38,112 nt of DNA from Escherichia phage T7. The notes beneath the pieces were generated by a model. It saw only the letters and a program-made list of their open reading frames with translations. It was not told the origin of the DNA and searched no databases. Location of the stretch: the sequence record MZ375238.1, one strand, 5' to 3'. This document shows positions 6,075-6,154 of this stretch, piece after piece (positions within the stretch are counted from its first letter, which is position 1; the number at the start of each line of letters is the position of its first letter). A program made the translations under genes and the position numbers.

Positions 6075-6077
6075 TCA

Positions 6078-6113
6078 CACTGGCTCACCTTCGGGTGGGC
6101 CTTTCTGCGTTTA
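6078..6113 (+). terminator. Early terminator TE (host RNAP, rho-independent)
   Basis: GC-rich hairpin ggctcacc-ttcg-ggtgggcc followed by tttctgcgttt directly after the ligase stop. Confidence 0.8.
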
Positions 6114-6124
6114 TAAGGAGACAC

Positions 6125-6147
6125 TTTTACGACTCACTAAAGGAGGT
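6125..6147 (+). promoter_or_regulatory. T7 promoter phi1.5 with altered upstream end (-17 to -15 read TTT instead of TAA)
   Basis: ttttacgactcactaaaggaggt; the core from -14 to +6 is intact (+1 at 6142), but the upstream AT-recognition positions come from the deletion junction. Confidence 0.75.
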
Positions 6148-6154
6148 ACACACC

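What the first reader, a model, noticed from the sequence alone, without database searches (positions are those of the whole stretch)
6075..6154. Scarless 156-bp deletion of exactly the gene 1.4 reading frame
The ligase stop (6074) and gene 1.5 start (6155) are separated by 80 bp, against 236 bp in the reference as I recall it. The missing 156 bp equals the gene 1.4 CDS from ATG through TAA. Left flank (ending ...gagacacttt at 6127) and right flank (starting tacgactcac at 6128) abut with no microhomology. This differs from the other two deletions here, which sit at short direct repeats. A deletion matching annotated CDS boundaries to the base looks like a designed knockout rather than a spontaneous event, though a natural variant is not excluded.
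Basis: partly seen in the sequence, partly recalled or inferred. Interest (0 to 1): 0.6.

Follow-up and report, generated by a model that had tools for sequence, protein, structure and literature searches.

The report
Engineered gene 1.4 knockout in T7
The 156-bp gap is real and is a designed CRISPR-Cas9 whole-gene deletion of T7 gene 1.4, in a published laboratory genome-reduction clone, so it is already known and not a natural oddity.

Summary
Observation confirmed. The window is a complete T7 genome. Against NC_001604 it lacks exactly bases 7608-7763, the gene 1.4 CDS from ATG through TAA. The junction is at window 6127|6128, with no microhomology and no inserted bases. The other two deletions, 1480 bp and 189 bp, sit at 13-bp and 9-bp direct repeats.

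Interpretation supported. The identical junction occurs in 63 GenBank records, all 'Mutant Escherichia phage T7 clone' genomes from the CiPGr study (Yuan et al., NAR 2022). [quoted passage not shown]

The window equals CiPGr clone T7_20L/S plus the gene 1.4 deletion, the 189-bp deletion and one or two SNPs. Its unique Ocr-gp0.7 fusion protein is QZB83556.1, on a single 38,112-bp contig, and that accession directly follows the last protein of MZ375237 (T7_30L). The window is therefore almost certainly T7_30S (MZ375238).

Natural relatives that lack gene 1.4 (13a, phiA1122, C5 and others; 35 records) have a different junction. They lose 170 bp including the ribosome-binding leader and keep the promoter intact.

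The deletion turns it into TTT and leaves an orphan Shine-Dalgarno sequence.

Already known; low interest.

The parts
4995..6074 (+). Gene 1.3 (DNA ligase), intact; its stop codon ends at 6074
   Evidence: 359-aa ORF; 100% identical to NC_001604 6475-7554
6082..6112 (+). E. coli terminator TE: hairpin 6082-6101 followed by a T-rich run; retained intact
   Evidence: Reference annotates TE at 7588, which is window 6108. RNA fold gives an 8-bp stem, -18.3 kcal/mol, z = -3.45
6113..6127 (+). Orphaned gene 1.4 translation-initiation leader (Shine-Dalgarno AAGGAG at 6115-6120 plus spacer ACACTTT); no start codon follows it any more
   Evidence: Sequence. The reference shows ATG immediately after CTTT. 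Natural 1.4-less phages lack this leader
6127..6128 (.). Deletion junction: reference 7607 joined to 7764; 156 bp (gene 1.4 ATG through TAA) removed; 0 bp microhomology, no scar
6125..6147 (+). T7 RNA polymerase promoter phi1.5 (-17 to +6, +1 = G at 6142), now TTTTACGACTCACTAAAGGAGGT in place of TAATACGACTCACTAAAGGAGGT (-16 A>T, -15 A>T)
   Evidence: Reference annotates +1 at 7778. Promoter table: -15 is A in 17 of 17 native T7 promoters and -16 is A in 16 of 17
6155..6244 (+). Gene 1.5 (29 aa), intact with its own Shine-Dalgarno
6242..6264 (+). Promoter phi1.6 (+1 at 6259), intact
   Evidence: Reference +1 at 7895 minus the 1636 offset
6270..6530 (+). Gene 1.6, intact
1244..1256 (.). Junction of the undesigned 1480-bp early-region deletion (3' end of gene 0.3 through most of 0.7) at the 13-bp direct repeat AGGAAGTCGAGGA
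   Evidence: Identical junction in T7_20L/S and OL964748-50
925..1620 (+). In-frame Ocr(1-111)-gp0.7 C-terminal fusion ORF created by the 1480-bp deletion; carries the clone-specific D74G change
   Evidence: The exact protein is QZB83556.1 on one 38,112-bp contig
37784..37792 (.). Junction of the undesigned 189-bp deletion that truncates gene 19.5, at the 9-bp direct repeat ATAGAGTCA

Best explanation
[quoted passage not shown] 2022).

Mechanism. Host cells carried SpCas9 and a pTarget plasmid with a spacer against gene 1.4 and a 100-bp repair template, made of 50 bp upstream of the ATG joined to 50 bp downstream of the TAA. Cas9 cut the infecting T7 DNA inside gene 1.4. Recombination with the template joined reference base 7607 to 7764. 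Edited phage had no protospacer left, escaped further cutting and were enriched during serial transfer.

Shown here:
- the exact coincidence with the CDS boundaries and the scarless, homology-free junction;
- the presence of this junction only in engineered clones;
- the window's membership of that lineage (T7_20L/S background; the protein accession points to T7_30S, MZ375238).

Taken from the paper: the cassette design.

Inferred:
- the exact arm sequences;
- that the two repeat-flanked deletions (1480 bp and 189 bp) are spontaneous repeat-mediated losses that also remove Cas9 targets;
- that phi1.5, now T at -16 and -15, is weakened but tolerated.
For: 1. Deletion = NC_001604 7608-7763 = the gene 1.4 CDS exactly, with 0 bp microhomology.
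2. Sixty-three records have the identical 60-nt junction, and every one whose record header was read is described as 'Mutant Escherichia phage T7 clone' (MZ375237-294, OL9647xx). Four more, PV223880-83, differ by one base. No natural isolate has it.
3. [quoted passage not shown]
4. The window equals T7_20L plus the gene 1.4 deletion, the 189-bp deletion and 2 SNPs. It shares all 6 of T7_20L's differences from the reference, and T7_20S already has the 162C marker.
5. The window's unique fusion protein is QZB83556.1, on one contig of 38,112 bp. This is the accession directly after the last protein of MZ375237 (QZB83555.1). MZ375238 is the one record of the series missing from the collection. The accession numbering 235 = 20L, 236 = 20S, 237 = 30L, 276 = 220S predicts 238 = 30S.
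6. Clones from transfers 10 and 20 (MZ375233-236) still have gene 1.4. Every record of the series from MZ375237 on that was found in the collection lacks it, on at least three different early-region backgrounds.
7. Gene 1.4 contains 11 SpCas9 NGG protospacers.
8. In these clones the deletions that miss CDS boundaries mostly sit at direct repeats of 4-29 bp (13, 9, 6, 29, 4, 4 and 20 bp). The gene 1.4 deletion has none.
Against: - The oligo or cassette sequences (Supplementary Tables) are not held, so the arm design for gene 1.4 could not be read directly.
- Other deletions attributed here to the cassette-gene library do not coincide with full CDS boundaries. Examples in T7_220S are gene 3.8 (11254-11545) and gene 1.7 (8193-8728), both of which overlap neighbouring genes. 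Exact CDS coincidence is therefore not a universal signature of the library.
- The record MZ375238 could not be opened to read its title.
Confidence: 0.95

Rival explanations
1. Spontaneous deletion: illegitimate recombination, or end-joining after a Cas9 cut, that happened to land on the ATG and the TAA and then spread through the population by recombination.
For: A random pair of endpoints has no flanking microhomology about 56% of the time, so 0 bp is not in itself impossible (my estimate). The same experiment produced undesigned deletions.
Against: Both endpoints match the CDS boundaries to the base. Most of the deletions in these clones that miss CDS boundaries sit at direct repeats of 4-29 bp. 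The design purpose of the library is on record. The chance of an exact CDS match is roughly 1e-6 genome-wide, or 1 in 311 given the size and an overlap with gene 1.4.
Confidence: 0.02
2. Natural allele: gene 1.4 is naturally absent in many close T7 relatives, and the window inherited or recombined in that allele.
For: Thirty-five natural records (13a, C5, CICC 80001, phiA1122, Yersinia phages R and Y, and others) run from TE directly into phi1.5 with no gene 1.4.
Against: The natural junction is GCGTTTAATACGACTC. It lacks 170 bp, including the 14-nt Shine-Dalgarno leader, and keeps TAATACGACTC intact. The window instead keeps the leader and reads CTTTTACGACTC. The window differs from the T7 reference at only 8 positions and shows no imported divergent tract. 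Its transfer-20 relatives still have gene 1.4.
Confidence: 0.005
3. A different engineering route, for example Red-ccdB recombineering on BAC-cloned segments (the SMART T7-B chassis, mBio 2025) or another synthetic T7.
For: That study also deleted gp1.4 seamlessly. Its genomes also lack the early region at the same 13-bp repeat.
Against: PV223882 differs from the window by one base at the gene 1.4 junction (CTTTAACGAC against CTTTTACGAC) and by one base at the early-region junction. It also lacks gene 1.7 and has T, not C, at position 162. The window's protein accession lies in the QZB series of the CiPGr deposit.
Confidence: 0.02
4. Assembly or consensus artefact: the junction was imposed by reference- or design-guided assembly rather than being present in the phage.
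For: None specific. The raw reads could not be examined.
Against: The junction recurs in 63 separately deposited clone genomes on at least three different backgrounds, and is absent in clones from transfers 10 and 20 of the same pipeline.
Confidence: 0.005

Closest known systems
CiPGr 'cassette-gene' deletion of T7 gene 1.4 (Yuan, Shi, Jiang & Ma, Nucleic Acids Res 2022, PMC9825161; GenBank MZ375237-MZ375294, OL9647xx)
   Same: Identical 60-nt junction. Same lineage SNPs and the same 1480-bp early-region deletion as T7_20L/S. The window's fusion protein is deposited in the same accession block.
   Different: Nothing of substance. The window appears to be one of these clones, predicted to be T7_30S / MZ375238, which is simply absent from the searchable collection.
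SMART T7-B chassis phage gp1.4 deletion (mBio 2025, PMC12153263; PV223880-83)
   Same: A seamless, designed removal of gp1.4 by oligo-defined homology arms, combined with loss of the early region at the same 13-bp repeat.
   Different: The junction is shifted or changed by one base (CTTTAACGAC). The early deletion is 1481 bp rather than 1480 bp. Further designed deletions are present, for example gene 1.7.
Natural gene 1.4-less allele of Teseptimavirus (phages 13a, C5, CICC 80001, phiA1122, Yersinia phages R and Y, and others)
   Same: Ligase, TE, phi1.5 and gene 1.5 are adjacent with no gene 1.4. This shows the gene is dispensable in nature.
   Different: The natural indel is 170 bp. It also removes the gene 1.4 Shine-Dalgarno leader and preserves the consensus TAATACGACTC. 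The window keeps the orphan leader and has TTT at -17 to -15.
Spontaneous T7 deletions between short direct repeats (the classical Studier-type early-region deletions; recalled from general knowledge, not from a paper read here)
   Same: The window's 1480-bp and 189-bp deletions are of this kind, with 13-bp and 9-bp repeats.
   Different: The gene 1.4 deletion has no repeat at all.

Membership tests
CiPGr cassette-gene designed whole-gene deletion | Deletion endpoints set by design at the boundaries of the annotated gene | tested here: met
   Reference 7608-7763 equals CDS T7p11 exactly
CiPGr cassette-gene designed whole-gene deletion | Scarless, template-defined junction with no dependence on microhomology | tested here: met
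   0 bp overlap and 0 bp inserted
CiPGr cassette-gene designed whole-gene deletion | The target gene contains SpCas9 (NGG) protospacers that the deletion removes | tested here: met
   7 + 4 protospacers lie wholly inside gene 1.4
CiPGr cassette-gene designed whole-gene deletion | The genome belongs to the experiment's lineage | tested here: met
   Equals T7_20L plus 2 deletions and 2 SNPs. The 162C marker is shared with T7_20S. QZB83556.1 sits on a 38,112-bp contig and is adjacent to the MZ375237 proteins
CiPGr cassette-gene designed whole-gene deletion | The published repair template for gene 1.4 reads reference 7558-7607 joined to 7764-7813 | not testable with these tools
   The supplementary tables are not held
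Spontaneous direct-repeat-mediated T7 deletion | Short direct repeat at both endpoints, with one copy retained | tested here: not met
   0 bp for the gene 1.4 deletion, against 13 bp and 9 bp for the window's other two deletions
Natural gene 1.4-less allele (13a / phiA1122 type) | Junction GCGTTTAATACGACTC: the Shine-Dalgarno leader is absent and phi1.5 positions -17 to -15 remain TAA | tested here: not met
   The window reads GCGTTTATAAGGAGACACTTTTACGACTC
SMART / Red-ccdB T7-B chassis | Junction CTTTAACGACTC and a 1481-bp early-region deletion | tested here: not met
   One-base differences at both junctions

The most novel reading that the evidence does not exclude
The knockout may not be neutral. 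Deleting the CDS through its TAA changes phi1.5 at -16 and -15, and -15 is A in all 17 native T7 promoters. It also leaves an orphan Shine-Dalgarno 34 bp after TE. This could measurably lower class II transcription entering genes 1.5-1.8. Phenotypes attributed to 'loss of gp1.4' in genome-reduction screens would then partly be promoter effects. Nature's own 1.4-less allele avoids this by removing 170 bp and keeping TAATACGACTC.
Probability: 0.25. Interest if true: 0.2.

Novelty: already known. Interest (0 to 1): 0.08.

Why it matters
For a genome scan, the finding correctly flags human engineering from sequence alone: an exact CDS excision without microhomology, sitting next to repeat-mediated spontaneous deletions. 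That is a useful signature, but the object is a published laboratory construct and teaches no new biology.

Two minor practical points follow. CDS-exact deletion designs in compact phage genomes can clip overlapping regulatory elements, here three bases of promoter phi1.5. And the natural 1.4-less allele in relatives offers a cleaner template for chassis design.

Tried and rejected
- Searching the paper library for the accession numbers MZ375233, MZ375237 and MZ375261 found nothing. The study was found through method keywords instead.
- The supplementary tables of the CiPGr paper (cassette sequences, accession list) are not held as text, so the repair-arm design could not be read.
- MZ375238 could not be fetched from the phage collection. 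Identity was inferred from the exact-protein look-up instead.
- I looked for quantitative data on -16 and -15 substitutions in T7 promoter variant papers (PMC5937735, PMC11053036). Neither passage search gave numbers for those positions. The promoter effect therefore rests on the conservation table and is marked as inference.
- I rejected the new 49-aa ORF 6095-6244 (GTG start inside the TE stem, in frame with gene 1.5) as a mechanical read-through ORF with no Shine-Dalgarno sequence.
- I rejected the natural-allele and SMART-construct origins after base-level junction alignments.

Full report
**1. The observation**

The window is a complete T7 genome, with 160-bp terminal repeats at both ends. 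The ligase ORF ends at 6074 and gene 1.5 starts at 6155, so the interval is 80 bp. In NC_001604 the same interval, 7555-7790, is 236 bp and contains terminator TE (7588), gene 1.4 (7608-7763) and promoter phi1.5 (+1 at 7778).

A base-by-base comparison shows that the left block matches the reference up to window 6127 (reference 7607). The right block matches from window 6128 (reference 7764). There is no overlap and no inserted base, so the missing interval is exactly the gene 1.4 CDS from ATG through TAA. The placement cannot slide in either direction, because the bases either side of each endpoint differ.

The window has two other deletions. One is 1480 bp at a 13-bp direct repeat and removes the 3' end of gene 0.3 through most of gene 0.7. 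The other is 189 bp at a 9-bp direct repeat and truncates gene 19.5. There are also eight single-base differences from the reference.

**2. Where the same junction occurs**

A 60-nt query centred on the junction, with an E-value cutoff that excludes half-matches, finds 67 phage records, all 'Escherichia phage T7'.

- Sixty-three are identical: MZ375237-MZ375294 and OL9647xx. All those I opened are described as 'Mutant Escherichia phage T7 clone T7_30L / T7_220S / T7_1t1'.
- Four (PV223880-83) differ by one base. They are the SMART chassis phages of a 2025 mBio paper, in which gp1.4 was removed by Red-ccdB recombineering with 40-nt arms.
- Wild-type T7 stocks and near-identical natural isolates such as Bas104 and ESh2 match only as two pieces separated by gene 1.4.

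**3. The source experiment**

The MZ and OL clones come from the CiPGr study (Yuan et al., NAR 2022, PMC9825161). For each non-essential candidate gene, a 200-nt chip-synthesised cassette carried a 50 x 2 bp homologous-recombination template and a Cas9 spacer. [quoted passage not shown] Phages were passaged up to 300 times on cells carrying the library. Large and small plaques were picked every 10 transfers, and 60 T7 clones were sequenced. [quoted passage not shown]

This matches the window. The gene 1.4 loss is boundary-exact and repeat-free. The early-region and gene 19.5 losses are at direct repeats.

**4. The window is one of those clones**

The window differs from MZ375235 (T7_20L) only by the 156-bp and 189-bp deletions and by two SNPs, 162 T>C and 1145 A>G. 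It shares all six of T7_20L's differences from the reference. T7_20S already carries 162C. The lengths agree: 38,457 - 156 - 189 = 38,112.

The 1480-bp deletion fuses Ocr to the C-terminus of gp0.7, and the window's version carries the private D74G change. An exact-sequence look-up of this fusion protein returns QZB83556.1, 'protein kinase [Escherichia phage T7]', on one contig of 38,112 bp. The last protein of MZ375237 (T7_30L) is QZB83555.1. The accession order 235 = 20L, 236 = 20S, 237 = 30L, 276 = 220S predicts MZ375238 = T7_30S. That record is the one missing from the searchable collection. I infer with high confidence that the window is T7_30S.

**5. Timing and recurrence**

Clones from transfers 10 and 20 (MZ375233-236) still have gene 1.4. 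Every record of the series from MZ375237 (transfer 30) on that was found in the collection lacks it, with the identical junction. This holds on at least three different early-region backgrounds: deletions of 1480 bp, 563 bp and 676 bp. That pattern fits repeated templated editing, or spread by recombination under Cas9 selection.

Gene 1.4 contains 11 SpCas9 protospacers. In the clones examined, the deletions that miss CDS boundaries mostly carry 4-29 bp of microhomology. The gene 1.4 deletion carries none.

There is a caveat. Other deletions that look designed, for gene 3.8 and gene 1.7, do not span the full CDS, probably because those genes overlap their neighbours. Exact CDS coincidence is therefore not universal in the library.

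**6. The natural-variant rival**

A more sensitive search showed that many natural relatives lack gene 1.4. Thirty-five records, including phages 13a, C5, CICC 80001, phiA1122 and Yersinia phages R and Y, run directly from TE into phi1.5.

Their junction reads GCGTTTAATACGACTC. Relative to T7 they lack 170 bp: the 14-nt Shine-Dalgarno leader plus the gene. They also keep the promoter's TAATACGACTC intact. The window keeps the leader (TAAGGAGACACTTT) and reads TTTTACGACTC. The window is otherwise T7 to within eight bases. It therefore did not acquire a natural allele. The natural polymorphism does show independently that gene 1.4 is dispensable. The lost product is a 51-aa hydrophobic protein of unknown function, phrog_17655.

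**7. Consequences for the locus**

- TE is intact: hairpin at 6082-6101, -18.3 kcal/mol.
- The gene 1.4 Shine-Dalgarno (6115-6120) is orphaned, because TAC now sits where ATG was.
- The gene 1.4 stop codon TAA was also positions -17 to -15 of phi1.5. After the deletion these positions read TTT, a net change of -16 A>T and -15 A>T. Among the 17 native T7 promoters, -15 is A in 17 of 17 and -16 is A in 16 of 17.
- From general knowledge of the T7 RNAP-promoter complex, -17 to -13 is contacted in the minor groove by the AT-rich recognition loop, and substitutions there are usually milder than those at -11 to -7. I could not retrieve numbers for these positions.
- The altered promoter persisted unchanged in all 63 identical records, so it is at least tolerated. 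Whether it is weakened is an inference that remains untested.
- Gene 1.5, phi1.6 and gene 1.6 are untouched.

**8. Verdict**

This is an already-published engineered deletion in a deposited laboratory clone. It is of low scientific interest. It does illustrate a sequence signature of engineering, and a small design side effect on an overlapping promoter.

Noticed in passing
window 925-1620 (junction 1244-1256): The 1480-bp repeat-mediated deletion creates an in-frame fusion of Ocr (gp0.3, residues 1-111) to the C-terminal ~120 residues of the gp0.7 kinase (231 aa). GenBank annotates it as 'protein kinase'. An independent laboratory's T7-B chassis (PV22388x) lost the same region at the same 13-bp repeat, but with a one-base difference (1481 bp).
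   Followed up: partly
window 1145: A>G is private to this clone and changes Ocr D74 to G. It lies 6 nt 5' of an AGG PAM (1151-1153), in the seed of a possible SpCas9 protospacer (1131-1150), so it may be a CRISPR-escape mutation. The CiPGr paper reports that about 23% of T7 point mutations lay in spacer or PAM regions.
   Followed up: partly
window 37784-37792: The 189-bp deletion at the 9-bp repeat ATAGAGTCA removes the 3' two-thirds of gene 19.5. The mBio 2025 paper reports that deleting gp19.5 alone markedly reduces plaque size. The sibling large-plaque clone T7_30L lacks this deletion. It may therefore explain a small-plaque ('S') phenotype of this clone.
   Followed up: partly
window 162: T>C two bases past the 160-bp terminal repeat. 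It is shared with T7_20S, T7_30L and T7_1t1 but not with T7_20L or the SMART clones, so it serves as a sub-lineage marker within the CiPGr population.
   Followed up: partly
window 18170, 23049, 24607, 31383, 32536, 33627: Six single-base differences from NC_001604, all shared with T7_20L. They are probably differences of that laboratory's T7 stock or early fixed mutations. Their coding effects were not examined.
   Followed up: no
L010-L012 and records (reference 7594-7765 region): Gene 1.4 is a natural presence/absence polymorphism in Teseptimavirus. In T7 it sits as a 170-bp unit (Shine-Dalgarno leader plus CDS) between TE and phi1.5, flanked by a 2-bp TA ambiguity, and its stop codon supplies the start of the promoter. 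Thirty-five natural records lack the unit.
   Followed up: yes
L007 (MZ375276, T7_220S): This late clone carries further deletions: a 147-bp loss between 29-bp repeats in the left-end repeat array (reference 159-334), a 1021-bp loss of genes 4.2-4.7 at a 20-bp repeat, and rearranged junctions near gene 5.3 and the right end that my simple caller could not resolve.
   Followed up: no
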